Below, piece by piece: positions 2,757 through 44,921 of a stretch of 44,921 bases of DNA. The notes under the pieces were generated by a model. It was given only the letters and a program-made list of their open reading frames with translations. It was not told where the DNA came from and searched no databases. The position numbers and the translations under genes are program-made. Numbering within the stretch: the first letter of the stretch is position 1; every line of letters starts with the position of its first letter. The stretch is from Acidobacteria bacterium AH-259-G07 (GTDB lineage: Bacteria; Acidobacteriota; UBA6911; RPQK01; JADFOI01), in the NCBI GenBank assembly GCA_027717925.1, contig JALLON010000001.1:1-44921 (forward strand), in the 5' to 3' direction.

Positions 2757-4304
2757 TTGAATCCTACAATGGCTCCCAAAACCCGTGCTAAGGAAGTTTC
2801 AATAAACTGGCGAAATCGGTGCGCAAAGATTGTGTTCATGGCCGTTTTCGTTGTGCATTCTGCGCTGGCGACATGGGCGGCACCAACACGAAAAGAGGTG
2901 CTGGCAGCCATGAAGACGGCAACCGACTTCATGATGAATACGGTTTCGACGAGAGGCGGGTTTGTCCAGAAGTACTCACTGGATCTCAAAGAAAAATACG
3001 GTGAACTCAAGGCTCGTGACTCCATGATCTGGGTCGAACCCCCTGGTACACCAACCGTGGGGCTCATGCTGATTGAAGCCCACCGTACAACCAACGACGC
3101 CCAGTACCTGGAGTACGCCGACCGCGTCGCCGGCGCACTGATTTGGGGACAGCTGCCATCCGGAGGCTGGCACTACTTCATCGATTTCGATATGGAGGGT
3201 GTCCAGAAGTACTACGATGAGTTCCTGTCACAGAGTTGGGGCTGGGAGGAATACTACCACTACTACGGTAATGGGACCTTTGACGATGATACCACGGCGT
3301 CCGCCACACGTTTTCTGCTCAGACTATACGCGACGACCCTAGATCCGAAATACAAGAGCCCCCTGCTCAAAGCACTGGACTTTACTCTGGACGCCCAGTA
3401 CCCCAACGGGGCCTGGCCTCAACGCTACCCGCTCTCCCGCGAATTCCGCCATCATGGCCACCCGGATTACACTTCGTTTTACACCTTCAATGATGGCGTC
3501 ATCTCAAACAACGTTGGTGCCCTGGTCGAAGCCTATGAAAAGCTTGGCGACAAAAAGTATTGGGAAGCCGCCCGCAGAGGAATGGATTTTTACATCCTCT
3601 CCCAGCTGCCCAGCCCTCAGACCGGATGGGCCCAGCAGTATGGCTTTGATATGAAGCCAGCCTGGGCTCGAAGCCAGGAGATGAATGCCGTCTCTTCCGG
3701 GCAAACCTTTCAAAACGTACGAGATCTGATGAACTTCTACCGGGTGACGGGGGATCGCAGATATCTGGAACCCATCCCGAAAGCCATTCGCTGGCTGGAG
3801 ACGGCACGTATCCCGGAAACGAACCGGCCCGGCGGCTATACACAGTTTTATGAACTCGGATCAAACCGGCCGGTCTACCAGAGACGAGAAGGAACTCCTC
3901 CCGATTTCCTGTGGGTGAAAACTTATGATGCCGCGGGGGTCTATCCGTTGGGTGTTCGGTTCGAGCTGGATGTGTCGGGCCTGGAGAGGGAGTTCCAGCA
4001 GGTTAGGAGCCTGTCGCCGTTGCAAGCTCGGTCTGAGTACGAACGAAGCAGAACCTATACCCACCCCAGGATTCAGCGTCCCGATCCCCTGGCCGACTAC
4101 CGGGTCCTGGCAAGAGACGCCGATGAGATCCGGCAGCTCATTGAGTCTCTGGACGAGAGGGGGGGATGGGTGGTCGAAACTCAGATGTCGGATCGAGAAG
4201 ATTTCATTAACAATCCTCCCCACAGATTCAAAGCCTACGATACAGGAACCTACGTGACACGCATGTACCGTTTGATCAATTATCTCAACTCCTTGAAACC
4301 TTAG
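2757..4304 (+). CDS. PL10 (PelA/Pel-15E family)-like polysaccharide lyase, exported; distal paralogue of the tandem trio at 38.3-43.5 kb
   Basis: Hydrophobic N-terminus (IVFMAVFVVHSALATWA). Motifs are colinear with the PL10/TIGR02474 consensus as I recall it: GTFDDDTTASATRFLLRLY (TIDNxAT..RFL), LDAQYPNGAWPQRYPL (QYPNGGWPQ.YP), YTFNDGVISNN (ITFNDDAM), and GWAQQY..MKPAWARSQE (W.QHD..P..AR.YE, carrying the catalytic Arg). Start is TTG at 2757 or ATG at 2769. Confidence 0.65.
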   Translation: MNPTMAPKTRAKEVSINWRNRCAKIVFMAVFVVHSALATWAAPTRKEVLAAMKTATDFMMNTVSTRGGFVQKYSLDLKEKYGELKARDSMIWVEPPGTPTVGLMLIEAHRTTNDAQYLEYADRVAGALIWGQLPSGGWHYFIDFDMEGVQKYYDEFLSQSWGWEEYYHYYGNGTFDDDTTASATRFLLRLYATTLDPKYKSPLLKALDFTLDAQYPNGAWPQRYPLSREFRHHGHPDYTSFYTFNDGVISNNVGALVEAYEKLGDKKYWEAARRGMDFYILSQLPSPQTGWAQQYGFDMKPAWARSQEMNAVSSGQTFQNVRDLMNFYRVTGDRRYLEPIPKAIRWLETARIPETNRPGGYTQFYELGSNRPVYQRREGTPPDFLWVKTYDAAGVYPLGVRFELDVSGLEREFQQVRSLSPLQARSEYERSRTYTHPRIQRPDPLADYRVLARDADEIRQLIESLDERGGWVVETQMSDREDFINNPPHRFKAYDTGTYVTRMYRLINYLNSLKP

Positions 4305-23775: not shown

Positions 23776-23884
23776 ACAAGGATCGCCTCTTTTTGATTTT
23801 CCGTTGATCCTTGGTCACACGGTTAAACCGTGCACAAGCACTCGTTTTGCTAACTTTTGAAGTTTAAAGGGAGGTTTTACAATC

Positions 23885-24733: not shown

Positions 24734-24894
24734 CGCGTAGGGACTGATTTTCGGTCTGGGGTAAGGAAGATGTGGGACGCGCTCGAACTTGAACCTGCTT
24801 CGGGATGCATAAAAAAGTAAAACGCCACGGCTTGATAGAAAGCAGCAGGTTGTTGCTTCGCCAATCAACCAATGTAAGGGAGCAAGCAGGAAAG

Positions 24895-25701: not shown

Positions 25702-25716
25702 GCAAGGGCGTGTATT

Positions 25717-27618: not shown

Positions 27619-27689
27619 AGGGCAGCGAAGGATTTCTATCCCGTTCCATGTAACAGCCCCCCCAAGGCGTTTATCGGCTGTCAAGCTGT

Positions 27690-29459: not shown

Positions 29460-29461
29460 AG

Positions 29462-30832
29462 TTAGTCAGACCTTTTTGTGAGAAGCTTCAGGTAGAGCTC
29501 CTTCTCCTTTTTGCTTTCTTCTAAGCTTCCCAATTTGGCTAAGGCGGAGGAGAGGTTTAGATGGTACAGGGGATTGTCAGGATCCAAATCGACAGCTTTT
29601 CGGTAAGCAGACGCTGCTTCCCGGTGTTCTTCCTTTGTGAACAAAAGATTGCCAAGAAGATTGTGGTAATCGGGCAGGACGGGATTTAAGTTGATGGCTT
29701 TTTTCACAGCTTCAACAGCGGCAGGAATGTTTTTGAGCTCGTGCAAACAAACCGCCCTGGTGTAGTGATACATTGAATCATAGGGCTGCAGTTCTAAGGC
29801 TTTTTCGATGTTGCGTAAGGCTTCGAGGGGACTTCCGCGATTGAGATAGACTTGAGCTAGTCCGAAACAAGCTTCATGACTATCCGGCGCGACTTCCAGG
29901 GCTTTTTGAAATGCCTTTAAAGCCTGGTCCAGATTATCTCGCCATAAATGTTCTTCCCCTTCGAGATACAATGATCGGCCCTTTAGCCGACTTTTCTCTT
30001 GAATTTGGCTTTCTGAATCAAGTGCCTGAAACCGGGACAGAATCTGTTGAGTCTTCTCAACGTCGCCTTGCTTTCGATAGGCTGCACTAAGAAGAAAATA
30101 AGCCTCAGCCAAATTAGGGTCCAATTCAATTGCCTTTTGAAAATGATCTATTGCCTGCTGAGTTCTATCTAGATTCAGAAGAGTTTTCCCAAGTTCTTGG
30201 TGGACAAACGGCAGATTAGACCGTAACTCCAGGACCTTTTCGAAATGGTCAACCGCTTTCTGATAGCTCTGCTGACTCTGGCTATACAATTCAGCCAAAT
30301 TGAGGTGGGCCTCTATAAGGTCCGGCTTCAGTTCTAACACCTCCAAGAGACGCTGCTCTCCCTCATCATAGCGTTGTCGGCCGAGCAAGTTTCTTCCCAT
30401 CAGGTGCAGGGCGTGTACTCGCACAGGATCATCCTTTGAAACCTTCTCTTTCAGTTTCTCCAGCACAACTCGAATTTGCTCCTCCGCTTCCTGAAGGTTC
30501 CCTTGTGCTTGCAGGAGATAAGCCAGATTGAGGCGGACTTTGAGGAGCTCAGGATGAACGCCTAGGACTTGGCGGTTGACATCATATGCTTCTTGATACC
30601 GACCCAATTTGTAGAGGAGTCTTGCAAGTGCTATGGCTGCTTGCTCATGGGTAGGCTCTAGTTCCAGCGCCTGCCGATATTCAACCACTGCCTCCAAAAA
30701 CTTGTCCTGGCTCTCATAGCTTCGCGCCGATCGCAGCCGTTCCTCGAGGCCTTTGTGTTCTTCGCGAGGGGTTTGGCCATAAGTCCAGCTAAGCACTGCA
30801 GTGAGTAGGAAGGAAACAAGAACGTTTTTCAT
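29462..30832 (-). CDS. Secreted tetratricopeptide-repeat (TPR) protein, translationally coupled to the CRTAC1 gene
   Basis: Many 34-aa repeats of the A..Y..AL.L.P....A...L type along the whole length. Signal peptide MKNVLVSFLLTAVLSWTYGQ if the ATG at 30832 is used (the ORF-track GTG is at 30850). Its stop lies 2 nt from the start of the downstream CRTAC1 gene. Confidence 0.75.
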   Translation of the reverse strand: MKNVLVSFLLTAVLSWTYGQTPREEHKGLEERLRSARSYESQDKFLEAVVEYRQALELEPTHEQAAIALARLLYKLGRYQEAYDVNRQVLGVHPELLKVRLNLAYLLQAQGNLQEAEEQIRVVLEKLKEKVSKDDPVRVHALHLMGRNLLGRQRYDEGEQRLLEVLELKPDLIEAHLNLAELYSQSQQSYQKAVDHFEKVLELRSNLPFVHQELGKTLLNLDRTQQAIDHFQKAIELDPNLAEAYFLLSAAYRKQGDVEKTQQILSRFQALDSESQIQEKSRLKGRSLYLEGEEHLWRDNLDQALKAFQKALEVAPDSHEACFGLAQVYLNRGSPLEALRNIEKALELQPYDSMYHYTRAVCLHELKNIPAAVEAVKKAINLNPVLPDYHNLLGNLLFTKEEHREAASAYRKAVDLDPDNPLYHLNLSSALAKLGSLEESKKEKELYLKLLTKRSD

Positions 30833-30951
30833 CGCCGCTGATACAAACACTATTTGAACTATTTCCCCACCAATTCACGGCTGACAACCACTGCTCGGCA
30901 ACCCCCTTTCCTATTTTCGTGGGCTCAAGGTTTTAATCCTGCTATGAGAGC

Positions 30952-31887
30952 TCAATATTTTTTCACACGCCTGAGTGCCGCAGCCGCATCGGCTCTTAGT
31001 TCTCCACTATCCAAGATGAAAATCTTATAGCCCTCCTCGATGCGCTGTTCAATCGTTTCCGCATTGGCGGGAACACCACACGGAATTCCTTTTTTCTTAC
31101 AGGTAGCCAAGATCTTCCTCATGGCCTGCTGGACTTCAGGGGCGGATGGATCTGCAGGAAAACCCATGGAAGTCGCCAGGTCTAAAGGACCAATAAAGAC
31201 GCTTGAGACACCGGGAACGTCGAGGATGGCTTCTAGGTTCTTCACCCCTTCCGCCTCTTCGATCTGCAAAAATAAAATGATTTCTCCGCCTGGATCTAAA
31301 GGCCAAATGTCGGCCCGTTTTACATACTCTTTTAAGGACAAACCCCAATAGCGCAATGCGATCAGGGGCGATACACCTCTCAAACCTGGAGGGTCAAAAT
31401 CAGGTGCCCCTCTTTCCTGAGGATATCTGGCTGCCCGCACGGCAGCCAGCGCATCTTCAGGAGTGTTAATGTGGGGAAACATCACACCGTATGCCCCCAG
31501 GTCCAGCGCCTGCTTGACAAGGAACTGCAACTGTTCCCGACCATTACTGGGTATGGCCAGAGTGGGGACCACATTGGGGCGCAAAGAGCTGTTTTCTAAG
31601 GGCTCTTGACGCGAAAGCATTCCCTGCAGAAACTGCTGCAGCCGCTCAAAGTCGAGGGCACCGTGTTCCATGTCAATAGTTATAAAGTCAAGCGGCGAAT
31701 CAGCCAGAACGGCCGCGTTAGTTAGCGAGAGATCCTGGGGCGAAATGCCAAAGATGGGCTTGCCCTGCTGCAGGGTTTCAATGATCCGGTTAATTCGCTC
31801 GCGAGACTGAGCCAAAGTGGGGGGAAGAGCGAAGGCAAATAGGAAGACGAAAAACGCAAATGGAGAGAGCTTTTCAAAAGGTTTCAT
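30952..31887 (-). CDS. HpcH/HpaI-family aldolase paralogue with a clear signal peptide
   Basis: The ATG at 31887 gives MKPFEKLSPFAFFVFLFAFALPPTLAQS. Family blocks: LDFITIDMEHGALD, ARYPQERGAP..PGLRGVS, FLQIEEAEGVKNLEAILDVPGVSSVFIGPLDLATSMG. There is no Met between the signal peptide and the conserved core, so the signal cannot be removed by choosing a later start. Confidence 0.7.
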   Translation of the reverse strand: MKPFEKLSPFAFFVFLFAFALPPTLAQSRERINRIIETLQQGKPIFGISPQDLSLTNAAVLADSPLDFITIDMEHGALDFERLQQFLQGMLSRQEPLENSSLRPNVVPTLAIPSNGREQLQFLVKQALDLGAYGVMFPHINTPEDALAAVRAARYPQERGAPDFDPPGLRGVSPLIALRYWGLSLKEYVKRADIWPLDPGGEIILFLQIEEAEGVKNLEAILDVPGVSSVFIGPLDLATSMGFPADPSAPEVQQAMRKILATCKKKGIPCGVPANAETIEQRIEEGYKIFILDSGELRADAAAALRRVKKY

Positions 31888-32257
31888 GAAGATTCCCCAA
31901 GACTTGAGCAAGAGAGACGAAAAGAAGTCTTTGCTCAAGCTCTTGCCTCATTCGTCAGCCATTTGGGCAGCGTTAGAAGCTACCTCTCAACCCGTACAAA
32001 TCTATAGTGCCACCAATCCTAAGTCAAAGGAAAGAGTTTAGTTTCGCTGTCCAAATTATTGAATCATATTATCGAATTATCCAAATTATTGTATATTAGA
32101 AGACCGCTTGTGCCCTTTCGAGCTCGATCTGTAACCTTCTAAGTATTTGAGAATACGTATCTTGATCTTTGTACTCGATCTTAACTGAAGACTTCGGTAT
32201 ATAAATTGCATTCATTGTTAAAAGGGGAATTTAAGCTTGACGCGATTTTTACGCTTG

Positions 32258-35962: not shown

Positions 35963-37927
35963 CTATCTTTGATCCACGATCTTCAGGCCAAGCGCTTTCG
36001 CTTGCTCTAGATGTTTCTGCGCCCTGGCATCCATGCCCTTCTGTCGGTAGGCAAAGGCCAGAAGCAAGTGTGCTTCGGTGTTTTGCGGTTGGCGCTGGAG
36101 CACGCTCTGAAATTCCTCAATCCCAGCATCCAGGTGCCCCTCCGCCACAAGGACACGGCCAAAACCCAGTTTGGCTGCTATGAAGGCACCCAGATTTAAT
36201 GCTTCTTGATAATGCGACCTTGCACGATCCAGGTTTTTCTGCATCACATGCACATGTCCCAGACCGATATGACCCTGTGGATTGTCTGGCTGGAGTTGAA
36301 GCAAGCGCTCATAGCCTGTCACCGCTGCTTCAGTCATCCCCAACTGGAAGTAACTCATCGCCAGATAGTGAACGGCTCCGGGAGAGTCGGGAGACAGCTC
36401 CAGCGCTGCCTTAAACTCACCGACAGCGCTCATGAATTGAGAGGTCTGGTAGTAATTGAAACCCTGCAGATAACGGGCGGCGTAAATCTTGGGATCCTTC
36501 TTGATCACTTCTCTCAGTCTGCGAATGGATGAGCTGTAGTTCCTGTTCTCGCTCTCCAGCGTGGCTGTCCGAATGGAATTGAACAGCTCGATCTTGTCCT
36601 TCGGATCAGCGCGATCGCTGTCTTCATCTTGGCTTTTACCCGCTGATAGAGCCACGTATCCCAGGGACTGCAACCTTTGACGAGTCGCCTCATCGATGTC
36701 CGAAAACTCTTGCTCATGGCCCGTGGGATTCTTGAACTTGTTGGTCAGGCTTGCCAGGAGATTGTCATACTGTTTTCCAAGATCCGAAAGCCGGTTATAC
36801 AGATTCACCTCCTCGCCGGGATCTGCGCGCAAGTCATACAATTCTTGCCTAGGTACTCGAATGTACTTGTAGCGCTCATCCTGATAGCTGGTCACCGAGC
36901 TCCAGCCAAAGTGATAACGGGCATAGTAGGATTCACCATAGCTGTAAGTACCCCCACCAAGGCTCCCCCTTCTGATTAGACCGAGAAGACCGCGTCCCTG
37001 CATTTGATTTCCCCGCCTGCCTAGGGTCTGCAGAATGGTTGGCGCCAGGTCCAGTGACTGAACCAGCGTACCGATAACCACCCCTCCGGATGCATTACCA
37101 GGAAGCTTAATGATCAATGGGATGTGCAGAGTCGAATTGTATACAAAGAACCCGTGGGTCTCTTCTCCGTGTTCGCCCAGTCCCTCTCCATGATCGCTCA
37201 TCACAACGATTAAAGAAGAATCATAGAGATGGGTATCCTTGACGGCATCGATTAAGCGCCCCAGCTGTGCATCGGCAAAAGCGACCTCTCCGTCGTACAG
37301 CTTGTCTGAGAAACGACTTCGATAAGGTTCAGGTGGCTCATAGGGATCATGCGGGTCAAATAAGTGAACCCAGAGAAAGAATCGTTTAGATCTGTTCTGG
37401 CTTAGCCAATCGATCGCCAAATCGACTGTTTCGTCCCCTCTTCGTTCGACTGCGTTGAATCCGAAGTCGTCATGGTAAAGGTCAAAGCCCTGATCCAGGC
37501 CCCAATTGGAATCCAGAGCAAAAGAGCTGACAAAGGCAGCTGTTATGTAACCATTTCGCTTCAGTATCTCTGCCAGCGTCTCCCGGTCCTCTTTGAACTT
37601 GAAGAGGGAGAACTGCCCGCCAGCACTAGATCCGCCGAAGTCTCTTACCCCGTGGTACATGGGATAGGTGCCCGTCAGGATTGACGCGTGGGAGGGCAAG
37701 GTGATGGGAACCTGGACCATAGCGCGCGAGAAGCGAATTCCGTCCTGAGCCAGGGAATCCATCGCCGGTGTAATAGAGGCCGGATGGCGGCCAACCCGGT
37801 CGGCTCGAAGTGTGTCAATCGTCACAAGGAGTATGGAAGGTTCCGTACCGGACACAAGCGCACAGGACACAAGCGTGCCAAAAAAAAGCAACGCGATCAA
37901 TGGAAGAATCGTAAAAGACTTCATCAA
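35963..37927 (-). CDS. Sulfatase-superfamily (alkaline-phosphatase-like) hydrolase/transferase fused to C-terminal TPR repeats; possible lipoprotein
   Basis: N-terminal blocks ILLVTIDTLRADRVG, PITLPSHASILTGTYP and VVMSDHGEGLGEHGE fit PF00884-type enzymes. The last ~200 aa are TPR-like. The N-terminus LFFGTLVSCALVSG contains a lipobox-like LVSC. Confidence 0.65.
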   Translation of the reverse strand: MMKSFTILPLIALLFFGTLVSCALVSGTEPSILLVTIDTLRADRVGRHPASITPAMDSLAQDGIRFSRAMVQVPITLPSHASILTGTYPMYHGVRDFGGSSAGGQFSLFKFKEDRETLAEILKRNGYITAAFVSSFALDSNWGLDQGFDLYHDDFGFNAVERRGDETVDLAIDWLSQNRSKRFFLWVHLFDPHDPYEPPEPYRSRFSDKLYDGEVAFADAQLGRLIDAVKDTHLYDSSLIVVMSDHGEGLGEHGEETHGFFVYNSTLHIPLIIKLPGNASGGVVIGTLVQSLDLAPTILQTLGRRGNQMQGRGLLGLIRRGSLGGGTYSYGESYYARYHFGWSSVTSYQDERYKYIRVPRQELYDLRADPGEEVNLYNRLSDLGKQYDNLLASLTNKFKNPTGHEQEFSDIDEATRQRLQSLGYVALSAGKSQDEDSDRADPKDKIELFNSIRTATLESENRNYSSSIRRLREVIKKDPKIYAARYLQGFNYYQTSQFMSAVGEFKAALELSPDSPGAVHYLAMSYFQLGMTEAAVTGYERLLQLQPDNPQGHIGLGHVHVMQKNLDRARSHYQEALNLGAFIAAKLGFGRVLVAEGHLDAGIEEFQSVLQRQPQNTEAHLLLAFAYRQKGMDARAQKHLEQAKALGLKIVDQR

Positions 37928-38218: not shown

Positions 38219-38274
38219 GAGCAAAGCATGCCAAGCCGATCTTTGGATGACTTCCAAGTGAGGGAGATTTGACC

Positions 38275-40203
38275 ATGAATTACCGTATTTTTTTCCGTCC
38301 TGGCCCCAGATTCCATCTGCCTTTGCCCGCTGTTTGGTCCTTTTTGATTTCAACCGTGTATTGCTTCTCGATTCCTGTTTGCGCGTCGGTCTGTCTACCG
38401 GCCGCCCCAGGGGAAAGGGAAGTTCTGGCGGCCATGAGAAAGGCGACCGACTTCATGATGAACCGGGTGTCGAGCCGGGGCGGATTTGTGTGGCATTACT
38501 CGGAGGATTTTTCCAGACAATGGGGCGAGGTACCGGCCCGGAAATCGCAGGTCTGGGTCCAGCCTCCCGGGAGCACACCCTCTGTGGGGATGATGCTCTT
38601 GGAAGCGTACGAAGTTAGAGGGGATGCCCAGTATTTGAAATATGCCGACAAGGTTGCGGGAGCTCTGATCTGGGGCCAACTGCCATCCGGAGGGTGGCAT
38701 TATTTCATCGACTTTGATGCGGCGGGAGTTCAGAAATGGTATCGGGAGGTGGCCTCCCAGTGCCGGGGCTGGGAGGAGTTTTACCATTACAACGGCAACG
38801 CCACTTACGATGATGACACCACGGCCAGCGCCACCCGCTTGTTGCTTCGGCTTTACGCCAGGACACTGGATCCCAAGTACCGGCCCTCGCTGCTGAAGGC
38901 GCTGGATTTCATACTGGAGTCGCAGTATCCGAACGGGGCCTGGCCGCAGCGCTATCCCCTGCGCTACGATTTTCCTCACGACGGGCACGCCGACTACACA
39001 TCTTTTTACACCTTCAACGACGGCGTGATCTCCAACAACATCGAGCTTCTTTTGGAAGCTTACGAGAAACTGGGGAACGAAGAGTATCGGAAGGCGGCTT
39101 ACCGCGGGATGGACTTTTACATTCTTTCGCAGCTTCCGTCTCCACAGGCCGGTTGGGCCCAGCAGTACGACATGGACCTGAGACCGGCCTCGGCGCGCTC
39201 CTACGAGCCGGCTGCACTGAACACATATCAGACAATGCGCAATATCAAAGACCTCGAGAACTTTTACCTGATTACGCGAGATCGGCGCTATCTGGAGCCA
39301 ATCCCGAAAGCCCTGCAGTGGCTCGAAGCATCTGTCATTAACACTGACCGGTCCCGTAACTTCACCCATGCGATCTATTATGAAATCGAAACGAACAAGC
39401 CTCTGTATCCCCACCACGAGCATCGTCGGAATTCGGAAGGAAAGTTGCAGATCGTCCGTTTCTGGGTGGATGGTCAATACACAGATGAACGGCCTTACAG
39501 CGCGCTGCCGCAAGTGGATCTTCAGGCGCTTCGGAGAGAGTTTGAACACGTTAGCGCTCTGACGCCTGAGGAAGCAGCCGCGGAGTACGGTCGAAGAAAG
39601 AAGGCTGACCCGACAGTTTCCACCACTGCCGAGGAGGTCAAGGAAATTCTCTCATCCCTGGACAGCCGCGGAGCCTGGGTCACCGATATTGAGTTCTTAG
39701 ACACTCTTGATTATGTCGATAATCCGCGCACCAGGTTTCGGGGCATTGACACCCGCACGTATGTTTCTAATATGCGGAAATTGGTCGCCTACCTTAGAGC
39801 AAGAGAGGATCAAGCCTTGAAGAGTGAGGGTCCTCAGGCCCGTTTGACCTTCATTGATCTTGCTGAAATCCCTATCAACGAACTGCTCCCAGGGGTGCGA
39901 ACGCGCACCCCGTACGGTGAAAACCTGATGTTCTCCTACGTAGAAATGGACGCGGGAACCGAGGTTCCTACCCATAGTCATCCTCACGAGCAGGGCGGTA
40001 TCTTGCTGGAAGGTCGTATTGAAATGACGATCGGTTTGCAAACCAGGGTGCTAGAACCCGGGGTGCTTTACCTGATTCCGCCCAACGTTCCGCACGCAGT
40101 ACTGACCGTTGGAGGGCCAGCCAAGATCCTTGACGTCTTCAGTCCAATAAGAGAGGACTATGCAAAGTTGGTGAACGAGTACATCAAGCAAGAAGACAGA
40201 TGA
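38275..40203 (+). CDS. PL10-like lyase paralogue fused to a C-terminal KdgF-like cupin domain (first of the tandem trio)
   Basis: The ATG at 38275 is preceded by GAGGGAG (8-nt spacer); the ORF-track TTG is at 38269. It carries the same PL10-type motifs as 2757..4304 (NATYDDDTTASATRLLLRLY, ESQYPNGAWPQRYPL, YTFNDGVISNN, GWAQQYDMDLRPASARSYEP). It has very high amino-acid identity to the third copy across the catalytic region, read by eye. It extends ~120 aa beyond the point where the other copies stop. Confidence 0.65.
   Translation: MNYRIFFRPGPRFHLPLPAVWSFLISTVYCFSIPVCASVCLPAAPGEREVLAAMRKATDFMMNRVSSRGGFVWHYSEDFSRQWGEVPARKSQVWVQPPGSTPSVGMMLLEAYEVRGDAQYLKYADKVAGALIWGQLPSGGWHYFIDFDAAGVQKWYREVASQCRGWEEFYHYNGNATYDDDTTASATRLLLRLYARTLDPKYRPSLLKALDFILESQYPNGAWPQRYPLRYDFPHDGHADYTSFYTFNDGVISNNIELLLEAYEKLGNEEYRKAAYRGMDFYILSQLPSPQAGWAQQYDMDLRPASARSYEPAALNTYQTMRNIKDLENFYLITRDRRYLEPIPKALQWLEASVINTDRSRNFTHAIYYEIETNKPLYPHHEHRRNSEGKLQIVRFWVDGQYTDERPYSALPQVDLQALRREFEHVSALTPEEAAAEYGRRKKADPTVSTTAEEVKEILSSLDSRGAWVTDIEFLDTLDYVDNPRTRFRGIDTRTYVSNMRKLVAYLRAREDQALKSEGPQARLTFIDLAEIPINELLPGVRTRTPYGENLMFSYVEMDAGTEVPTHSHPHEQGGILLEGRIEMTIGLQTRVLEPGVLYLIPPNVPHAVLTVGGPAKILDVFSPIREDYAKLVNEYIKQEDR
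39841..40200 (+). other. Single-barrel cupin domain (KdgF-like) forming the C-terminal extension of the 38275 gene
   Basis: RLTFIDLAEIPINELLPGVRTRTPYGENLMFSYVEMDAGTEVPTHSHPHEQGGILLEGRIEMTIGLQTRVLEPGVLYLIPPNVPHAVLTVGGPAKILDVFSPIREDYAKL. Both cupin metal motifs are present (HxHxxxQ/E and PxxxPH). The D.FSP.R.DY tail resembles small KdgF-type cupins. Confidence 0.65.
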
Positions 40204-40249: not shown

Positions 40250-41905
40250 ATGAAGAGGAATGAACTTATTCTCCAGCTTAACCATTCCTTTGCCTTGTAC
40301 AGAAACGCTGTGACCTTCCGTCTACTAAGACCACTTTTTGTTCTGACGGTCTTGTTTTTGAACTTTCATTGGACGGCGTCAGGCGCACCGCCCACGAAAA
40401 CGGAAGTTCTAGCCGCCATGAGAAAAGCGACCGATTTTATGATGAACAGGGTCTCGAACCGCGGGGGATTTCTGTGGCATTACTCCGAGGACCTCTCTCA
40501 GGGGTGGGGTGAAGTCCCAGCGCGCAAGTCCCAAATCTGGGTACAACCTCCCAGCACTCCCACCGTGGGCAGGATGCTTTTGGCTGCTTATGAAGCTACC
40601 GGTGATCGCCAGTACCTGGAACACGCCGAGAAAGTGGCTGGCGCTCTCATCTGGGGACAACACCCTTCGGGAGGATGGCACTATTTCATCGATTTTGACA
40701 TGTCCGGGGTTCGTCACTGGTATCGCGAGGAGGCCTCCCGGTGGCGGGGATGGGAGGAATTCTACCACTACTACGGCAACTGTACGTATGATGATGACAC
40801 CACCACCAGCCCCACTCAGTTTCTCCTTGAGCTTTATATAACGACACTGGATCCAAAGTATAGGAAGCCGCTGTTCAAAGCCCTGGGTTTTATCCTCCAA
40901 TCGCAGTATCCCAATGGTTCCTGGCCGCAGCGCTACCCCCTGAGCCGCGAGTTTCCGTTCGAAGGCCGGCCCGATTACACTTCGTACTACACCTTTAATG
41001 ACGATGTGACCTCTAATAATATCTATCTTCTCCTGAAAGCCTACGAGAAATTGGGAGACGAAAAGTACCTGAAAGCTGCTCGCAGAGGAATGGACTTTTA
41101 CATTCTTTCGCAGTTGCCCAGTCCTCAGGCGGGATGGGCAACACAGTATGACATGGATATGAAACCAGCCTGGGGCCGTAGTTATGAACCTGCCGCTGTC
41201 TGTTTGGATCAAACAATCGGGAATATTGAGGACCTTGAAAACTTCTATCGAATCACTGGCGATAAAAGATATCTTGAACCCATTTCGAGAGCCATTGAGT
41301 GGCTCGAGTATTCAGTTATCAACACTGATCCTTCCAAGGATTTCACGCACGCAAATTTTTGTGAAGTGGGAACCAACAAGCCGCTGGTTATTCATCATGA
41401 ACATCGAAGGCGCCCAGACGGGAAACTGGGAATTGTCCGGTATTGGGTTGATTCCGAGCTAGGAGAGGAGGCTGCTATTGAAAGAGAGATGCCCGTAAGT
41501 GCAAGCGAAAGGGCGACCGGATACCACTTAGGAATTGAATTCCAAGATTCTCACTTCAAAACCTTTTCACCCAGCAGAATAGATATCGAGGCTATGAAAA
41601 AGCGGTTGAAAGAATATCTCACCGTGCCTTTTGCCGAAATTCGCACCAGGCACGGGAAGGGAATCGAGAGACCGATGCGATTCTCCGACCGGCGAGCCAA
41701 AGCGAGGGCGGATTCTGAAGGACTGCAGGAACTCATCTCGTCGATGGACGCGCGAGGCGCTTGGCTTACAGAGATCGAGTTCCTGGACAAGTTTGATTTC
41801 ACGCATAACCCGCCGACACGGTTTCGGGGAATCGATACGGGTACCTATGTGTCGAATATGTACAAGCTGATTAATTTTTTGAAATCAAACTCAGAGAAAA
41901 AGTAA
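40250..41905 (+). CDS. PL10-like lyase paralogue (second of the tandem trio), exported
   Basis: Same motif set (NCTYDDDTTTSPTQFLLELY, QSQYPNGSWPQRYPL, YTFNDDVTSNN, GWATQYDMDMKPAWGRSYEP). Hydrophobic N-terminal segment LRPLFVLTVLFLNFHWTASGA. Carries the shared C-terminal module GAWLTEIEFLDKFDFTHNPPTRFRGIDTGTYVSNMYKLINFL. Confidence 0.65.
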   Translation: MKRNELILQLNHSFALYRNAVTFRLLRPLFVLTVLFLNFHWTASGAPPTKTEVLAAMRKATDFMMNRVSNRGGFLWHYSEDLSQGWGEVPARKSQIWVQPPSTPTVGRMLLAAYEATGDRQYLEHAEKVAGALIWGQHPSGGWHYFIDFDMSGVRHWYREEASRWRGWEEFYHYYGNCTYDDDTTTSPTQFLLELYITTLDPKYRKPLFKALGFILQSQYPNGSWPQRYPLSREFPFEGRPDYTSYYTFNDDVTSNNIYLLLKAYEKLGDEKYLKAARRGMDFYILSQLPSPQAGWATQYDMDMKPAWGRSYEPAAVCLDQTIGNIEDLENFYRITGDKRYLEPISRAIEWLEYSVINTDPSKDFTHANFCEVGTNKPLVIHHEHRRRPDGKLGIVRYWVDSELGEEAAIEREMPVSASERATGYHLGIEFQDSHFKTFSPSRIDIEAMKKRLKEYLTVPFAEIRTRHGKGIERPMRFSDRRAKARADSEGLQELISSMDARGAWLTEIEFLDKFDFTHNPPTRFRGIDTGTYVSNMYKLINFLKSNSEKK

Positions 41906-41970
41906 CGTCATCGAGGCAAGTTAAGCTTTTACTTTTGTCCATTATAAGTTGGTCCATCCCTCAGATTGGC

Positions 41971-43452
41971 ATGTCTCTTCTAGTTGAGAGGATTTTTTTA
42001 ATTTGCACGGTCTTTCTCTTTCTGAGTTTCATGCCTGTGGGCTTTGGGGCAGCACCGACGGAGAAAGAAGTTCTCGAAGCCATGAAAAGGGCGACCGATT
42101 TCATGATGAATACCGTCTCCAACCGGGGAGGATTTCTGTGGCACTACTCCGAAGACTTTTCCAAACAATGGGGGGAGGTTCCGGCGCGCAAATCCCAAAT
42201 CTGGGTCCAACCTCCTGGTAGCACACCCTCAGTGGGGATAATGCTCCTGGAAGCCTATGAAGTCACCGGGGATCTCCAGTACCTGAGATATGCCGAAAAA
42301 GTAGCGGGAGCCCTCATCTGGGGTCAGCTTCCTTCGGGAGGATGGCACTATTTCATTGACTTTGATACGGCGGGAGTTGAGAAATGGTATGAGGAGGTAG
42401 CCTCCCAGTGCCGGGGTTGGGAGGAGTTTTACCATTACTACGGCAACGCCACCTACGATGATGACACGACGACCAGTGCCACCCGCTTTTTGCTTGGACT
42501 TTACGCGAGAACTTTAGATCCCCAATATCGGCCGTTTCTTTTGAAGGCGCTGGCTTTCATTCTGGAGTCGCAGTATCCGAACGGTGCCTGGCCCCAGCGC
42601 TATCCCCTGCGCTACGATTTTCCCCACGACGGCCATGCCGATTATACGTCCTTTTACACGTTCAATGACGGGGTGATCTCGAACAATATTGATCTTCTTC
42701 TGGAAGCGTACGAGAAACTGGGGGACGAAGGGTACAGGAAGGCGGCTTACCGGGGGATGGACTTTTACATTCTATCGCAGCTGCCGACTCCTCAGGCGGG
42801 ATGGGCTCAGCAGTATGACATGGACATGAAACCGGCCTGGGCGCGTTCTTACGAGCCAGCTGCACTGAACACGCATCAGACCGCGCGGAACATAAAAGGC
42901 CTTGAGAACTTCTACCTGATTACGGGAGATCGCCGCTATCTGGAACCGATCCCGAAAGCTCTTCAATGGCTTGAAGCGTCTGTGATTAACATGGATCCTA
43001 CAAAGCAATTCACACATGCGACTTTTTATGAAGTACAAACCAACAGACCGCTTTACGCCCATCACGAAGTACGGGACGGAAAAATTGTCAGCTATCGAGT
43101 CGATTACGAGGAATTCGATTTACCATATTACGGCGGACGCCGGAATATAGAAATCATCGCGCTCAAGAAAGAATTCCAAACGGTTAGCGCCTTAGAACCT
43201 GAAGAAGCCAGGGCTGATTACCGCAAGCGAAGGCAATCGGCGCAAGCCGTTCTCAAAGTGGAGCCCCTAGAGGTGGAGAAGCTCATTGGCTCGACGGACA
43301 AAAGAGGCGCATGGGTCACAGAAATCAAGTTCCTTGACACGGACAATTACGCGGATAATCCTCAGATAGAATTTCGTGGGATCGATACCCAAACCTACAT
43401 TTCCAATATGTATGCACTGATCAATTTCTTGAAAACATCTAAAGAGAGATAG
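41971..43452 (+). CDS. PL10-like lyase paralogue (third of the tandem trio), exported
   Basis: The ORF-track TTG is at 41935. The ATG at 41971 gives a conventional signal peptide, MSLLVERIFLICTVFLFLSFMPVGFGA. Motifs NATYDDDTTTSATRFLLGLY, ESQYPNGAWPQRYPL, YTFNDGVISNN, GWAQQYDMDMKPAWARSYEP. Stretches of its nucleotide sequence align to the first tandem copy with few mismatches. Confidence 0.65.
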   Translation: MSLLVERIFLICTVFLFLSFMPVGFGAAPTEKEVLEAMKRATDFMMNTVSNRGGFLWHYSEDFSKQWGEVPARKSQIWVQPPGSTPSVGIMLLEAYEVTGDLQYLRYAEKVAGALIWGQLPSGGWHYFIDFDTAGVEKWYEEVASQCRGWEEFYHYYGNATYDDDTTTSATRFLLGLYARTLDPQYRPFLLKALAFILESQYPNGAWPQRYPLRYDFPHDGHADYTSFYTFNDGVISNNIDLLLEAYEKLGDEGYRKAAYRGMDFYILSQLPTPQAGWAQQYDMDMKPAWARSYEPAALNTHQTARNIKGLENFYLITGDRRYLEPIPKALQWLEASVINMDPTKQFTHATFYEVQTNRPLYAHHEVRDGKIVSYRVDYEEFDLPYYGGRRNIEIIALKKEFQTVSALEPEEARADYRKRRQSAQAVLKVEPLEVEKLIGSTDKRGAWVTEIKFLDTDNYADNPQIEFRGIDTQTYISNMYALINFLKTSKER

Positions 43453-43479: not shown

Positions 43480-44090
43480 GTGAAAAAGATTTATTTGATT
43501 GGGGCTTTCTTCCTGACTTGTTGCTCAACTGGTTTTCTTTTGCAACATCCACTGATGCGAATCTTGCGCGGGTTATGCCCAAGAAATTGGAGCGACCTTA
43601 TCTCCATTTTACAAGTGAAGACATCCGGGCCATGAGAGAGAGACTTCTCGTCGAGGCGAACCGGCTCTTGGATATGCCGGTGTCCCGGGAAGTGCCGGCC
43701 AGATACGTGGGACCCAGCCCCTACTATGAAGGTTGGCGTGATGCTTACGAGCTCTACTTTCGGGCCCTGGGTAGAAACTGCTACAACCTTGCATTTATTT
43801 ATCAGATGACCGGAGATGAGAAGTACGCTCAGAAAGCGTACGAGTTCGCCGAGGCTCTCAGTGTGCTGGACAGCTGGGTTTACACGGGTGAGAAGTTTGC
43901 AGCGCTCTACTGGATGGGCAAGCCCTATGGAGTTAAATGGAATAAAGAGGAGGACAACGAGATCGTCTATTCGTACGATCTGAGTGCGTCTCGTCTCGGA
44001 TTGCCCGTCCGTGGAGGACCTTTATTTGGACCTCATGGTGAACTGGCTGTTTTTGAGTTGGGGCCGAACGCCTTGAGGTGATTCGTCTGA
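43480..44090 (+). pseudogene. 5' relic of a heparinase II/III-like paralogue (frameshifted signal peptide, internal deletion, truncated after ~200 codons)
   Basis: ORF 43518..44081 aligns with residues ~35-195 of the intact gene at 13813..15942 (MPKKLERPYLHFTSEDIRAMRERL / LLDMPVSREVP / LAFIYQMTGDEKYAQKAYEFAEALSVLDSWV / YWMGKPYGVKWNKEEDNEIVYSYDL). It lacks the ~18 aa VRTDPRAEVVYQRLLKEC. A signal-peptide-like reading (V)KKIYLIGAFFLTCCSTGF starts at the GTG at 43480 in another frame, which implies a frameshift near 43531-43542. Similarity fades after YSYDLSAS. Confidence 0.75.
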
Positions 44091-44145
44091 ACCTGTGAGC
44101 ACACAGAATGCTAAAAGGCATGCAAAGTCAGAGTTCAGGGGAAAT

Positions 44146-44921
44146 CATGCAAAGAACAAAGCCGTGGAGTTTCAAAGTTGTCGTGGCATTAATGTTCGAG
44201 ATGTTCGCACTCGGGGCGTGTTCCACCTTGGACGAGTCCTTGAAAGCGCCGACGGGCGGGCCGACAATTGCCCTCGCTTCTCCCGTGATTGTCACGACTG
44301 GCCCACCGAACGTGATGCGCTGGGGTTTCTACCAGTTTCCGGATATGTGGCGAGCGCCCGGAGGAAAGTTGTACCTGTCAATGAACGTTGGTGAAGATAA
44401 TTCGATTGTTGGAGAACATCGTCCGACGCAGTTCTTTGTCTCAAGCGATCAGGGTCAGTCCTGGCAGCCGATCCGGCACGATCAGGTGGACTTTTCGCCA
44501 GATATCTATACATTGCCAAACGGGCAGCAAGTGGCGTTCGGCAAGGGGAAGTTCGTTTATCATTTCTCGTCACTCAGTCCGAGCGCTCGCGAAGAGTATT
44601 CGCTGGAGGATTTGGGACTGAAGCCGGTCATGACATTTATGGACGGGTGGGAGTATTCGGTGTACGCATATTACCGTTACGCCGACCTGCCCGAGGAGCT
44701 TCGGCGAATTCCAATGTTACGACGAGCAGGCCCAGACGCTCCCTGGAGACGAGAATATGCCACCATAGAACCTTCGGACTTGCTGTTTTCGGCGGGCATT
44801 CGGTCTTTGGATGACAGCTGGGAGTGGCACAATGTGCCACCGAAGGTGAGTAACCCTGTCTTCTCGCCCCAGCGGGTCGTTGTACTGCCGGATGAAACAT
44901 TGCTGTGGGTTCACTCCACAC
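44146..44921 (+). CDS. BNR/Asp-box repeat (sialidase-like beta-propeller) lipoprotein, 3'-partial; NOT in the supplied ORF track
   Basis: My own translation from the ATG at 44146 (RBS AGGGGA, 5 nt upstream) is open for 258 codons to the window end: MQRTKPWSFKVVVALMFEMFALGACSTLDES...FFVSSDQGQSWQPIRHDQ... It has a lipobox-like ALGAC and an Asp-box SSDQGQSW (44440-44463). It is missing from the track only because no stop codon lies inside the window. Confidence 0.6.

What the first reader, a model, noticed from the sequence alone, without database searches (positions are those of the whole stretch)
39841..40200. Fusion of a polysaccharide lyase with a KdgF-like cupin
Copies 2 and 3 terminate 5-6 codons after the shared ...INFLK motif (NSEKK* / TSKER*). 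Copy 1 reads on through a short linker (AYLRA-REDQALKSEGPQA) into a complete single-barrel cupin. The cupin has intact metal motifs (HSHPHEQ ; PPNVPHAV) and a DVFSPIREDY tail.

Small cupins of this type include KdgF. The literature, as I recall it, reports that KdgF catalyses ring opening or linearisation of the 4,5-unsaturated uronates released by pectate and alginate lyases. That step was long assumed to be spontaneous.

A covalent lyase-KdgF fusion carrying an export signal would link two consecutive steps and place the second one outside the cytoplasm. The layout also looks like a stop-codon-loss fusion with a formerly separate downstream gene. I am not aware of a described PL10-cupin fusion.
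Basis: partly seen in the sequence, partly recalled or inferred. Interest (0 to 1): 0.7.

Follow-up and report, generated by a model that had tools for sequence, protein, structure and literature searches.

The report
Exported lyase fused to a cupin
An uncultured marine-type Acidobacterium encodes a probably exported polysaccharide lyase with a complete small metal-binding cupin enzyme fused to its end; the fusion is genuine and conserved in a second lineage, but the cupin is only a distant cousin of KdgF and its reaction is still unknown.

Summary
One uninterrupted ORF (38269/38275..40203, +) joins a distant PL10-like lyase to a complete Cupin_2 domain through a 16-residue linker. The two tandem paralogues downstream stop 5-6 codons after INFLK.

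It is not an assembly artefact. The same architecture (57% identity, 634 aa) occurs in at least five independent long-read metagenome assemblies, in a syntenic locus.

The lyase family keeps the PL10 catalytic Arg and acidic residues. Nearly all its members start with signal peptides. NCBI's start codon for this gene (M56) is probably too far downstream.

The cupin keeps the His/His/Gln/His metal site and the Asp-x-Phe-x-x-x-Arg triad needed for KdgF activity. It is not in the KdgF cluster:
- 47% identity to 4E2G (function unknown)
- 35% to the copper oxidase CelOCE, whose PXHXHP motif it carries
- 28% to KdgF

It belongs to a large family of mostly free-standing, signal-less cupins. Only 1 of 80 genomic loci of that family had a PL10-like gene nearby.

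Best reading: a real, rare, exported lyase-cupin enzyme whose cupin most plausibly processes the lyase's unsaturated uronate product in the KdgF manner. A CelOCE-like oxidative role is a live rival. I rate it a new variant of known kinds, of moderate interest.

The parts
38260..38267 (+). Shine-Dalgarno-like GAGGGAGA, 7 nt upstream of ATG 38275
   Evidence: Read directly from the sequence. It supports a start at 38275 rather than NCBI's M56 (38434).
38275..40203 (+). Whole fusion gene (642 aa from ATG 38275; the ORF listing starts it at TTG 38269, giving 644 aa), stop codon included
   Evidence: P0001 is the NCBI model of the same gene with a later start.
38275..38406 (+). Putative Sec signal peptide (MNYRIFFRPGPRFHLPLP + hydrophobic AVWSFLISTVYCFSIPVCASVCL + PAA)
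   Evidence: Its Kyte-Doolittle maximum of 2.13 is comparable to the signal peptides of the homologues. Most of the 21 homologue N-termini listed carry one just before the conserved EVLAAM.... No SignalP run was possible and the cleavage site is not determined.
38413..39795 (+). PL10-like polysaccharide lyase domain (aa 49-509 of the 644-aa numbering)
   Evidence: PF09492 E 4.8e-25. PDB 1R76 scores 3.4e-15 with the single sequence and 2.6e-22 with the family profile. The AF2 model has pLDDT 94.7, and its best Foldseek hits are the two PL10 structures.
38809..38811 (+). Asp181, equivalent of Pel10A Asp389
   Evidence: The 1GXM versus 1GXO (D389A) alignments place the mutated Asp on this column. 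It is invariant in 66 family members.
39019..39021 (+). Asp251 (TFND), probable equivalent of the Ca-binding Asp451 of Pel10A. The alternative alignment puts Asp451 on Asp242, which is also invariant.
39196..39198 (+). Arg310 (ARSYE), equivalent of the catalytic base Arg524 of Pel10A
   Evidence: Invariant in the family alignment A3.
39796..39843 (+). Linker RAREDQALKSEGPQAR (16 aa). There is no counterpart in copies 2 and 3, which stop here.
   Evidence: The linker of the second lineage (ESAQSREEDDV) has a different sequence.
39844..40200 (+). Complete single-barrel cupin (aa 526-644). TTG 39844 aligns with Met1 of the closest free-standing relatives.
   Evidence: Cupin_2 E 2.8e-16. 60-68% identity to about 120-aa free-standing cupins. 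AF2 pLDDT 87.5, with Foldseek hits to 4E2G, CelOCE and KdgF. Alignment.
39967..39993 (+). Metal motif P-T-H569-S-H571-P-H-E-Q575 (the first two His ligands plus Gln; this is CelOCE's PXHXHP)
40093..40095 (+). His609, the third His ligand
40132..40152 (+). D622-V-F624-S-P-I-R628, equivalent to YeKdgF Asp100/Phe102/Arg106 and to CelOCE Glu96/.../Arg102
40250..41905 (+). Lyase paralogue copy 2 (no cupin)
41935..43452 (+). Lyase paralogue copy 3 (no cupin; 75% identical to the copy 1 lyase part)

Best explanation
The gene encodes a genuine two-domain enzyme that is probably exported. It has an N-terminal signal peptide, then a divergent PL10-like polysaccharide lyase working by beta-elimination (Arg base, Ca2+ held by conserved Asp residues). 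A 16-residue flexible linker follows, then a complete mononuclear-metal cupin of the KdgF / CelOCE / 4E2G superfamily.

The fusion arose when a whole cupin gene was captured in frame behind the first gene of a tandem lyase array. It has been kept under selection in two lineages that have diverged to about 60% identity.

Inferred function: the lyase releases products that carry a 4,5-unsaturated uronate. The tethered cupin uses its conserved Asp (general acid/base), Arg and metal site to process that product in the periplasm or outside the cell. The most plausible reaction is KdgF-type ring opening of the free unsaturated monouronate to the linear 5-keto-4-deoxyuronate. That product would then be imported by the MFS or SSF transporters of the locus and catabolised by its aldehyde dehydrogenase and HpcH-type aldolases.

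Shown: the architecture, its recurrence, residue conservation and the export signals of the family. Inferred: the substrate, the cupin's reaction and the downstream pathway.
For: **Architecture and recurrence**
- The ORF is continuous and carries both Pfam domains.
- The same fusion sits in a syntenic locus in five independent assemblies.

**Selection on the cupin**
- All 24 invariant columns of the close cupin family are kept in the window domain (by construction, since it is the first sequence of A1). By eye, all but two are also kept in P0002, and those two changes are conservative (G to A, D to E).

**KdgF chemistry is possible**
- The His/His/Gln/His ligands and the Asp-x-Phe-x-x-x-Arg triad align with YeKdgF D100/F102/R106. 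D100A abolishes KdgF activity (PMC11381880).
- TM 0.79-0.81 and rmsd 1.8-1.9 A to KdgF structures.
- At two pocket positions the domain is KdgF-like rather than CelOCE-like: Asp not Glu96, and Val not Phe33.

**Lyase chemistry**
- The equivalents of D389, D451 and R524 are invariant in 66 homologues.

**Export**
- Signal peptides occur throughout the lyase family.
- In a neighbour-joining tree the fused cupins fall in one small clade with the only two free-standing members that have textbook signal peptides (P0126, P0133). P0126 sits in a cluster with a Pec_lyase gene.

**Locus**
- It is a uronate-polysaccharide locus: four PL10-like genes, a heparinase II/III-like lyase, a sulfatase, a TonB-type outer-membrane protein, MFS and SSF transporters, an aldehyde dehydrogenase and two HpcH aldolases.
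Against: - The cupin is not in the KdgF sequence cluster: 28% identity, and CelOCE and 4E2G are closer.
- None of the 119 nearest 50%-identity representatives has KdgF as its best characterised match.
- The triad and the ligands are shared across the whole superfamily, so they do not prove KdgF activity.
- KdgF acts only on free monomeric unsaturated uronate. Characterised PL10 enzymes are endo-acting (PMC10992409). Nothing here shows an exo mode.
- Known KdgFs are cytoplasmic (the BeKdgF table in PMC11381880).
- Most relatives of this cupin lack signal peptides and lie in unrelated contexts such as Fpg, thiolase, malate synthase and planctomycete PSCyt genes.
- Only 1 of 80 genomic loci had a PL10-like neighbour.
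- A third syntenic locus (L087) does without any cupin.
Confidence: 0.42

Rival explanations
1. The cupin is a CelOCE-type copper oxidase. It would be tethered to the lyase and cleave or modify chain ends of the same, possibly sulfated, acidic polysaccharide that the lyase cannot process. The arrangement would be analogous to LPMO-hydrolase synergy.
For: - CelOCE is the closest characterised relative: E 5e-14 and 35-38% identity, above the 30% 'orthologue' threshold used in PMC11946906.
- The PXHXHP motif that shapes CelOCE's flat binding face is present (PTHSHP) in both fused cupins and absent from KdgFs.
- Ligands H44/H46/Q50/H84 and pocket residues L13, L14, R102 and Y105 are conserved.
- The domain is exported, as a polysaccharide oxidase must be.
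- In L002 the secreted free-standing relative sits immediately upstream of a PQQ-dehydrogenase with cytochrome c domains, a possible electron donor.
- Foldseek ranks CelOCE above KdgF by E-value.
Against: - CelOCE's substrate-stacking Phe33 is Val here, and its sugar-anchoring Glu96 is Asp.
- The second Pro of PXHXHP is lost in the nearest secreted relatives (HSHV, HSHF).
- Most family members are signal-less and so probably cytoplasmic, which does not fit a polysaccharide oxidase.
- TM-scores are higher to KdgF (0.79-0.81) than to CelOCE (0.74).
- The NJ tree does not place the domain robustly with CelOCE: CelOCE nearer in 31 of 60 bootstraps, tie in 23, KdgF nearer in 6.
- No redox partner is evident in the window.
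Confidence: 0.2
2. The cupin performs some other small-molecule reaction, or a non-catalytic role. Candidates are an isomerase or tautomerase of the BacB kind, metal- or sugar-binding, or a dimerisation module that pairs two lyase domains. The fusion would then reflect co-localisation, not consecutive steps.
For: - The family's nearest solved member, 4E2G, has no known function.
- The free-standing relatives occur in heterogeneous, non-carbohydrate contexts.
- BacB, an isomerase, scores as well as the KdgFs (1.6e-12).
- KdgF, CelOCE and their relatives are obligate homodimers (PMC11381880, PMC11946906), so a fused cupin would dimerise the lyase.
- Related cupins are fused to quite different partners, including GNAT, DUF1284 and SMP-30/gluconolactonase.
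Against: - Every catalytic and metal residue is retained in both fused lineages, which argues against a purely structural role.
- Fusion partners usually act in the same process.
- The subclade containing the fusions is the one that has become secreted and lyase-linked.
Confidence: 0.3
3. The fusion is an artefact: a missed stop codon or frameshift, or a chimeric single-cell assembly. The lyase and the cupin would then be separate genes.
For: - The source looks like a single-cell or MAG-type assembly (name AH-259-G07).
- One assembly of the other lineage has the gene split into 272-aa and 290-aa pieces.
- SD-like motifs and GTG/TTG codons lie at the junctions.
Against: - The same in-frame architecture is found in a second lineage at 57% identity, in five independent long-read assemblies with identical junction DNA.
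- Neither lineage has a stop codon in frame.
- The junction SD-like motifs are no more frequent than the background within these genes: 6 of 33 in-frame NTG codons pass the same test in L001.
Confidence: 0.03

Closest known systems
KdgF (YeKdgF 5FPX/5FPZ, HaKdgF 5FQ0, BeKdgF 7ZYB/7ZYC): ring-opening enzyme for 4,5-unsaturated monouronates
   Same: - Single-barrel cupin of about 110 aa.
- His/His/Gln/His metal site.
- Asp-x-Phe-x-x-x-Arg catalytic triad in the C-terminal DxFxPxR(E/D)D motif.
- TM about 0.8.
- Functionally tied to polysaccharide lyases; here the tie is covalent.
   Different: - Only 28% identity for the window domain (32-35% for the P0002 cupin).
- KdgFs have a one-residue longer metal motif (HxHxxHxQ) and no PXHXHP.
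- KdgFs are free-standing, signal-less and cytoplasmic, and lie in kdu/kdg or alginate loci.
- This domain is C-terminally fused to an exported lyase and belongs to another clade.
CelOCE (9BWF): secreted homodimeric copper cupin that oxidatively cleaves cellulose chain ends (PMC11946906)
   Same: - The closest characterised relative by sequence (35% identity, E 5e-14).
- PXHXHP motif.
- Same four metal ligands.
- L13, L14, R102 and Y105 conserved.
- Acts outside the cytoplasm on polysaccharide.
   Different: - Phe33 is Val and Glu96 is Asp.
- The partner here is an acidic-polysaccharide lyase, not cellulases.
- The metal is unknown.
- CelOCE is free-standing.
4E2G (Sthe2323, Sphaerobacter thermophilus), a structural-genomics cupin of unknown function, together with the large family of ~120-aa free-standing cupins of Planctomycetota, Acidobacteriota and Latescibacterota
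   Same: - This is the domain's true family: 47% identity to 4E2G and 60-68% to the free-standing proteins.
- Identical motifs (PxHxHPHEQGG, PPNVPH, DVFSPIREDY).
   Different: - Those proteins are stand-alone, mostly lack signal peptides, and sit in varied genomic contexts.
- None is characterised.
PL10 pectate lyases (Cellvibrio Pel10A 1GXM/1GXO, Azospirillum PelA 1R76)
   Same: - Pfam Pec_lyase match.
- Best sequence and fold matches in the PDB.
- The equivalents of D389, D451 and the catalytic base R524 are conserved.
- Secreted.
   Different: - About 20% identity and TM 0.4-0.56.
- Below the TIGR02474 equivalog cut-off.
- Glu535 is replaced by Gln.
- About 130 extra residues, including a beta-rich C-terminal part.
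- The genomic context (sulfatase, heparinase II/III-like lyase) points to a substrate other than plant pectate.
- No characterised PL10 enzyme that I know of carries a cupin (own knowledge plus the literature searches).

Membership tests
KdgF | Small single-domain cupin barrel superposable on KdgF structures | tested here: met
   Cupin_2 E 2.8e-16. The AF2 model has pLDDT 87.5. TMq is 0.79-0.81 with rmsd 1.8-1.9 A to 5FQ0, 5FPZ and 7ZYC.
KdgF | Metal site of three His plus one Gln | tested here: met
   H569, H571, Q575 and H609 align with the ligands of KdgF and CelOCE. The spacing differs by one residue from KdgF.
KdgF | Catalytic Asp100 / Phe102 / Arg106 (YeKdgF numbering) | tested here: met
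   D622, F624 and R628 in DVFSPIR. The feature is not specific: 4E2G and 2PFW also have it, and CelOCE has E/F/R.
KdgF | Clusters with characterised KdgFs in sequence space | tested here: not met
   - 28% identity to Ha/YeKdgF, against 47% to 4E2G and 35% to CelOCE.
- The NJ tree puts the KdgFs with 2PFW in a different clade.
- None of the 119 nearest cluster representatives is closest to KdgF.
KdgF | Genomic association with lyases and uronate catabolism | tested here: inconclusive
   - The domain is fused to a lyase inside a uronate-type locus.
- L002 links a secreted relative to a Pec_lyase gene.
- Only 1 of 80 loci of the free-standing family has a PL10-like neighbour.
- No kduI, kduD, kdgK or kdgA was seen in the window.
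KdgF | Accelerates conversion of 4,5-unsaturated monouronate to the linear keto-deoxy-uronate | not testable with these tools
   This needs an enzyme assay (A232-235 or NMR).
CelOCE-type copper cupin | Ligands H44, H46, Q50 and H84 | tested here: met
   All four align. The identity of the metal cannot be tested.
CelOCE-type copper cupin | PXHXHP loop motif | tested here: met
   PTHSHP is present in the window and in P0002. The nearest secreted free-standing relatives have HSHV or HSHF instead.
CelOCE-type copper cupin | Pocket residues F33 (stacking) and E96 (anchors the -2 sugar) | tested here: not met
   These positions are Val and Asp here, which are the KdgF states.
CelOCE-type copper cupin | More than 30% identity to CelOCE (the paper's orthologue criterion) | tested here: met
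   35% over 99 aa for the window domain and 38% for P0002. However, P0002 is also 35% identical to HaKdgF, so the criterion does not separate the families here.
CelOCE-type copper cupin | Reductant- or H2O2-dependent oxidative cleavage of a polysaccharide | not testable with these tools
   This needs biochemistry.
PL10 polysaccharide lyase | Matches the Pec_lyase family model | tested here: met
   PF09492 scores 88.9 bits against a cut-off of 22. The family profile scores 2.6e-22 against 1R76 and 2.2e-17 against 1GXM.
PL10 polysaccharide lyase | Reaches the TIGR02474 pectate-lyase equivalog threshold | tested here: not met
   87.4 bits against a cut-off of 189.8.
PL10 polysaccharide lyase | Active-site Asp389, Ca-binding Asp451 and catalytic base Arg524 (Pel10A numbering) | tested here: met
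   - D181, D251 (or D242) and R310 take these positions.
- The column assignment is fixed by the 1GXM versus 1GXO (D389A) difference.
- All are invariant in 66 homologues.
- The residue roles come from PMC10992409.
PL10 polysaccharide lyase | Structural Glu535 | tested here: not met
   It is Gln321 here and in all paralogues and in P0002.
PL10 polysaccharide lyase | PL10 alpha/alpha toroid fold | tested here: inconclusive
   The top five Foldseek hits are all PL10 structures (E 7e-11 to 1e-8), but TM is only 0.38-0.56. Generic (alpha/alpha)6 enzymes follow.
PL10 polysaccharide lyase | Beta-eliminative cleavage of polygalacturonate | not testable with these tools
   The substrate is unknown. 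The context (sulfatase, heparinase II/III-like lyase) suggests another acidic glycan.
Sec-exported protein | N-terminal signal peptide | tested here: inconclusive
   There is a hydrophobic N-terminus and an SD-supported upstream start, and homologues have clear signal peptides. No dedicated predictor was available, and the NCBI model omits this region.

The most novel reading that the evidence does not exclude
The tethered cupin is a CelOCE-like copper oxidase. That would make this the first natural bifunctional enzyme combining beta-eliminative and oxidative cleavage of an acidic, possibly sulfated, marine or host glycan. It would also extend the newly discovered CelOCE chemistry beyond cellulose. 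A related reading is also open: the fusion may act as a 'Rosetta stone' that assigns a carbohydrate-product-processing function to the whole uncharacterised 4E2G-like cupin family, which has hundreds of genomic loci.
Probability: 0.18. Interest if true: 0.8.

Novelty: new variant of a known kind. Interest (0 to 1): 0.5.

Why it matters
KdgF showed that a step long thought to be spontaneous is enzyme-catalysed, and CelOCE showed that the same small cupin scaffold can oxidatively cleave polysaccharide. A natural, conserved, exported fusion of a lyase with a cupin lying between those two families is direct genetic evidence that such cupins work on lyase substrates or products outside the cytoplasm.

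It also provides a ready-made construct (full length, cupin-deleted, D622A or His mutants) for finding out which chemistry it performs. The answer would give a first functional handle on a very large uncharacterised cupin family.

It would also help explain how these Acidobacteria, whose locus lacks KduI and KduD but has an aldehyde dehydrogenase and HpcH aldolases, catabolise unsaturated uronates.

Tried and rejected
1. **Artefact hypothesis: rejected.** Independent assemblies of a second lineage carry the same in-frame fusion.
2. **Relic or active internal ribosome-binding site at the junction: not significant.**
   - The window has GAGGG 13 nt before TTG 39844. L001 has GGGAGGAA 6 nt before a GTG.
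   - A ≥5/6 AGGAGG match 4-13 nt upstream occurs at 6 of 33 in-frame NTG codons in the L001 gene, and the window junction scores only 3/6.
   - I kept this only as a passing note.
3. **Full-length structure model: not made.** MAFFT placed the short cupins across the lyase part (alignment A2). I modelled the two domains separately, so nothing can be said about how they pack together.
4. **Search for more fusions: none found.**
   - The 50%-identity representative library, queried with the lyase tail plus the cupin, returned no other lyase-cupin protein among the best 150.
   - The metagenome scan with exact peptide patterns found only two distant cupins.
   - The fusion is therefore rare, but clustering may hide members inside lyase-only clusters.
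5. **Searches with no informative result.** NCBIfam and PHROGs gave no hit for the cupin. A literature search for AH-259-G07 found nothing.
6. **Clade HMMs for KdgF and CelOCE: could not be built.** All representatives collected were closer to the query or to 4E2G.
7. **Single versus double origin of the fusion: unresolved.**
   - For a single origin: the loci are syntenic and both cupins fall in one small clade.
   - Against: the two cupins are strict sisters in only 7 of 60 bootstraps.
   - Against: the copy 1 lyase is closer to the unfused copy 3 (75%) than to the other fused lyase (61%).
   - That pattern fits either later duplication with loss of the cupin, or gene conversion.
8. **ORFs after copy 3 (43518-44621):** no family match.


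Full report
**1. The observation**

The window is a 44.9-kb contig of 'Acidobacteria bacterium AH-259-G07', an unclassified member of Acidobacteriota. A single ORF runs from 38269 (TTG) or 38275 (ATG) to the stop at 40201-40203. Over the junction, the two other frames are full of stops and the coding frame has none.

Pfam finds Pec_lyase (PF09492, aa 139-361, E 4.8e-25) and Cupin_2 (PF07883, aa 557-624, E 2.2e-15) in this protein. It finds only Pec_lyase in the two tandem paralogues at 40250..41905 and 41935..43452. A fourth paralogue lies at 2757..4304.

**2. The fusion is not an artefact**

A homologue search returned a second protein with the same two domains: P0002, 634 aa, 57% identity over 96% of the query. 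Its 90% cluster holds four full-length variants. These lie on contigs from five different ENA assemblies (40-647 kb), all with identical junction DNA.

The loci are syntenic with the window. In both lineages the fused gene is the first of a tandem lyase array. In both it sits beside these genes:
- an MFS transporter, an HpcH/HpaI aldolase and an alpha/beta hydrolase;
- a TPR protein;
- a further HpcH aldolase;
- FG-GAP/ASPIC proteins;
- an AAT-family protein;
- a SAF-domain protein;
- a heparinase II/III-like lyase.

The fusion has therefore been kept across divergence to about 60% amino-acid identity. The window cupin carries all 24 invariant positions of its family (by construction, as the first sequence of A1). 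By eye, P0002 keeps all but two, and both changes are conservative.

The fusion is rare. No other lyase-cupin protein appeared among the best 150 representatives of a 1.8-billion-protein library. A metagenome scan found none either. A third syntenic locus (L087/L088) has two lyases and no cupin.

**3. Start codon and export**

NCBI's model (P0001, 589 aa) starts at M56. Three things argue that this start is too late:
- GAGGGAGA lies 7 nt upstream of ATG 38275.
- The residues just before M56 (EVLAAM) are conserved in the paralogues and homologues.
- Those residues belong to the first helix of a high-confidence model.

From ATG 38275 the protein begins with a basic stretch and then a 23-residue hydrophobic stretch. 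Most of the 21 homologue N-termini inspected, including P0002 (MVNRHSRSKTGGGVVVLSLLTLTFVLVAPVPGAAQG), carry a clear signal peptide directly before the conserved mature N-terminus. Export is thus well supported for the family and plausible for this copy. No dedicated predictor was available, and I cannot tell periplasmic from extracellular.

**4. The lyase part**

The best solved relatives are the two PL10 structures. 1R76 scores 3.4e-15 with the single sequence and 2.6e-22 with a 66-member family profile; 1GXM scores 2.2e-17 with the profile. An AlphaFold model (pLDDT 94.7) also hits them first, but with TM of only 0.4-0.56. Generic (alpha/alpha)6 enzymes follow. The score is well below NCBI's pectate-lyase equivalog cut-off (87 vs 190 bits).

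The difference between the 1GXM and 1GXO (D389A) alignments fixes the residue numbering. With that numbering:
- Pel10A Asp389 maps to Asp181.
- The catalytic base Arg524 maps to Arg310.
- The Ca-binding Asp451 maps to Asp251 (or Asp242).

All of these are invariant in the family. Glu535 is Gln throughout.

So this is a divergent PL10-like lyase with intact catalytic machinery. Its substrate is unknown. The neighbouring sulfatase, heparinase II/III-like lyase and TonB-type outer-membrane protein suggest an acidic, perhaps sulfated, glycan rather than plant pectate.

**5. The cupin part**

It is a complete domain. After a 16-residue linker (RAREDQALKSEGPQAR), the sequence LTFIDLAEIP aligns with the very N-terminus of free-standing relatives (MTFIDLSEIP, MGFIDLSQLP). 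The codon in the Met position is TTG.

The SD-like motifs at both junctions are not statistically remarkable. I found no directly adjacent unfused pair.

The domain is 60-68% identical to a very large family of about 120-aa stand-alone cupins, mostly from Planctomycetota, Acidobacteriota and Latescibacterota. That family has more than 590 matching genomic stretches.

Relationships to solved or characterised proteins:

| Protein | Function | PDB E-value | Identity |
|---|---|---|---|
| 4E2G | unknown | 4e-30 | 47% |
| CelOCE | copper cellulose oxidase | 5e-14 | 35% |
| BacB | bacilysin biosynthesis | 1.6e-12 | 32% |
| 2PFW | unknown | 5e-10 | 33% |
| KdgF (Halomonas / Yersinia) | uronate ring opening | 4e-8 / 4e-7 | 28% |

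Foldseek gives the same order by E-value. TM-scores are slightly higher for the KdgFs (0.79-0.81) than for CelOCE (0.74).

A neighbour-joining tree puts the two fused cupins in one small clade with P0126 and P0133. These are the only free-standing members with textbook signal peptides. KdgF+2PFW, CelOCE and 4E2G sit in other clades, and the deep order is unresolved.

Residue by residue, the domain is a mosaic:
- It has the His/His/Gln/His ligands common to all these proteins.
- It has the Asp-x-Phe-x-x-x-Arg triad that KdgF needs (YeKdgF D100/F102/R106; PMC11381880). That triad is shared by 4E2G and 2PFW and is nearly shared by CelOCE (Glu96).
- It has CelOCE's PXHXHP motif, and it lacks the one-residue insertion typical of KdgFs (PMC11946906).
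- At CelOCE's Phe33 and Glu96 it has the KdgF states, Val and Asp.

**6. Genomic context of the cupin family**

Of the best 80 genomic loci encoding a free-standing relative, only one (L038, Pirellulaceae) has a PL10-like gene within 10 kb. Others sit beside Fpg, thiolase, malate synthase or planctomycete PSCyt/DUF1501 genes.

The exception is L002. There the secreted P0126 lies in a cluster with a Pec_lyase gene, an AAT-family gene and a 300-aa bicupin, all of which also occur in the window. It sits directly upstream of a PQQ-dehydrogenase/cytochrome c gene.

So the link to lyases is a property of the small secreted or fused subclade, not of the family as a whole.

**7. Interpretation**

What is shown is a genuine, conserved, rare and probably exported fusion of a catalytically competent PL10-like lyase with a catalytically competent cupin of the KdgF/CelOCE superfamily. 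What the cupin does is inferred.

- I favour KdgF-type handling of the unsaturated uronate product (confidence about 0.4). The acid/base Asp, the Arg and the metal site are all in place. Two pocket positions are KdgF-like. The partner enzyme makes exactly the class of product on which KdgF works.
- The main weakness is that KdgF needs free monomer, and nothing shows this lyase is exo-acting.
- A CelOCE-like oxidative role (about 0.2) is supported by closer sequence similarity, the PXHXHP motif, the exported location and the PQQ/cytochrome neighbour in L002. The missing Phe33 and Glu96 and the mostly cytoplasmic family count against it.
- Another small-molecule reaction, or a dimerising or binding role, remains possible (about 0.3).
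- An artefact is very unlikely (about 0.03).

**8. Novelty**

I found no description of a lyase-KdgF or PL10-cupin fusion in the searchable literature. GenBank calls the protein only 'cupin domain-containing protein'.

Both domains belong to known superfamilies, so this is a new variant of known kinds rather than something categorically new. Its value is as a natural experiment. It ties an uncharacterised, very large cupin clade lying between KdgF and CelOCE to polysaccharide-lyase chemistry outside the cytoplasm, and it offers simple constructs to decide between the two chemistries.

Noticed in passing
window 38275-38436: The GenBank model of this gene (MDA2925638.1, 589 aa) starts at M56 (ATG 38434). 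An SD-like GAGGGAGA before ATG 38275, conservation of EVLAAM upstream of M56, and the signal peptides of homologues all indicate that the real start is 53 codons earlier. The deposited model therefore lacks the export signal.
   Followed up: yes
window 20017-31938; also L001, L087, L089-L092: Three lineages share a conserved locus type. It combines tandem PL10-like lyases with an aldehyde dehydrogenase, two to four HpcH/HpaI aldolases, an MFS transporter, RidA, an alpha/beta hydrolase, OpuAC and (in L087) an FAA hydrolase. No KduI, KduD, KdgK or KdgA was seen. This suggests an oxidative or non-phosphorylative route for the unsaturated uronate: the aldehyde oxidised to a keto-deoxy-aldarate, then aldol cleavage. 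Compare the DEHU oxidative pathway in PMC8563752.
   Followed up: partly
window 10413-11315 (-) and 12699-13610 (-), flanking 11379-12671 (-): Two bicupin proteins of about 300 aa (Cupin_2) flank a SAF-domain protein (429 aa), next to a heparinase II/III-like lyase (13813-15969, -). A homologous bicupin also lies in L002 near the secreted cupin, and the SAF protein recurs in L089, L091 and L092. Their function is unknown, and they may be further uronate-processing cupins.
   Followed up: no
L002 6014-8846: The secreted free-standing relative of the fused cupin (P0126, 173 aa, with a clear signal peptide) is followed 116 nt later, on the same strand, by a PQQ-dependent dehydrogenase with cytochrome c domains. 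This would be a plausible electron donor if these cupins are redox enzymes of the CelOCE kind.
   Followed up: no
window 39823-39846; L001 11528-11548: In both lineages the linker contains a purine-rich SD-like stretch followed by a near-cognate start codon, at or next to the position of Met1 of the free-standing cupins. In the window this is GTGAGGG ... TTG. In L001 it is GGGAGGAA, then 6 nt, then GTG. It could be a relic of the former intergenic region, or an internal start that yields a free cytoplasmic cupin. It is not more frequent than background within these genes.
   Followed up: partly
L089 356-1849; L001, L090-L092: The contigs of the second fused lineage carry an ankyrin-repeat protein, a BrnT toxin and many transposases of several families (DDE_Tnp_1, Transposase_mut, IS110) inserted around the locus. 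This style of genome is typical of host-associated symbionts, for example of sponges. The source of the samples was not checked.
   Followed up: no
window 35963-37927 (-): A sulfatase fused to a C-terminal block of TPR repeats (654 aa) sits directly upstream of the lyase array and is divergently oriented. This architecture is unusual for a sulfatase.
   Followed up: no
window 3-2747 (+), 8556-10397 (-), 43518-44621 (+): Two large ORFs (914 and 612 aa) have no Pfam match at E ≤ 1e-5. A string of short ORFs after lyase copy 3 has none at E ≤ 0.01, and may be a degraded or frameshifted gene.
   Followed up: partly
P0379: A 627-aa protein combines two cupin stretches of this superfamily with an SMP-30/gluconolactonase domain. 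It is a second example of these cupins being fused to a sugar-acid-related enzyme.
   Followed up: no
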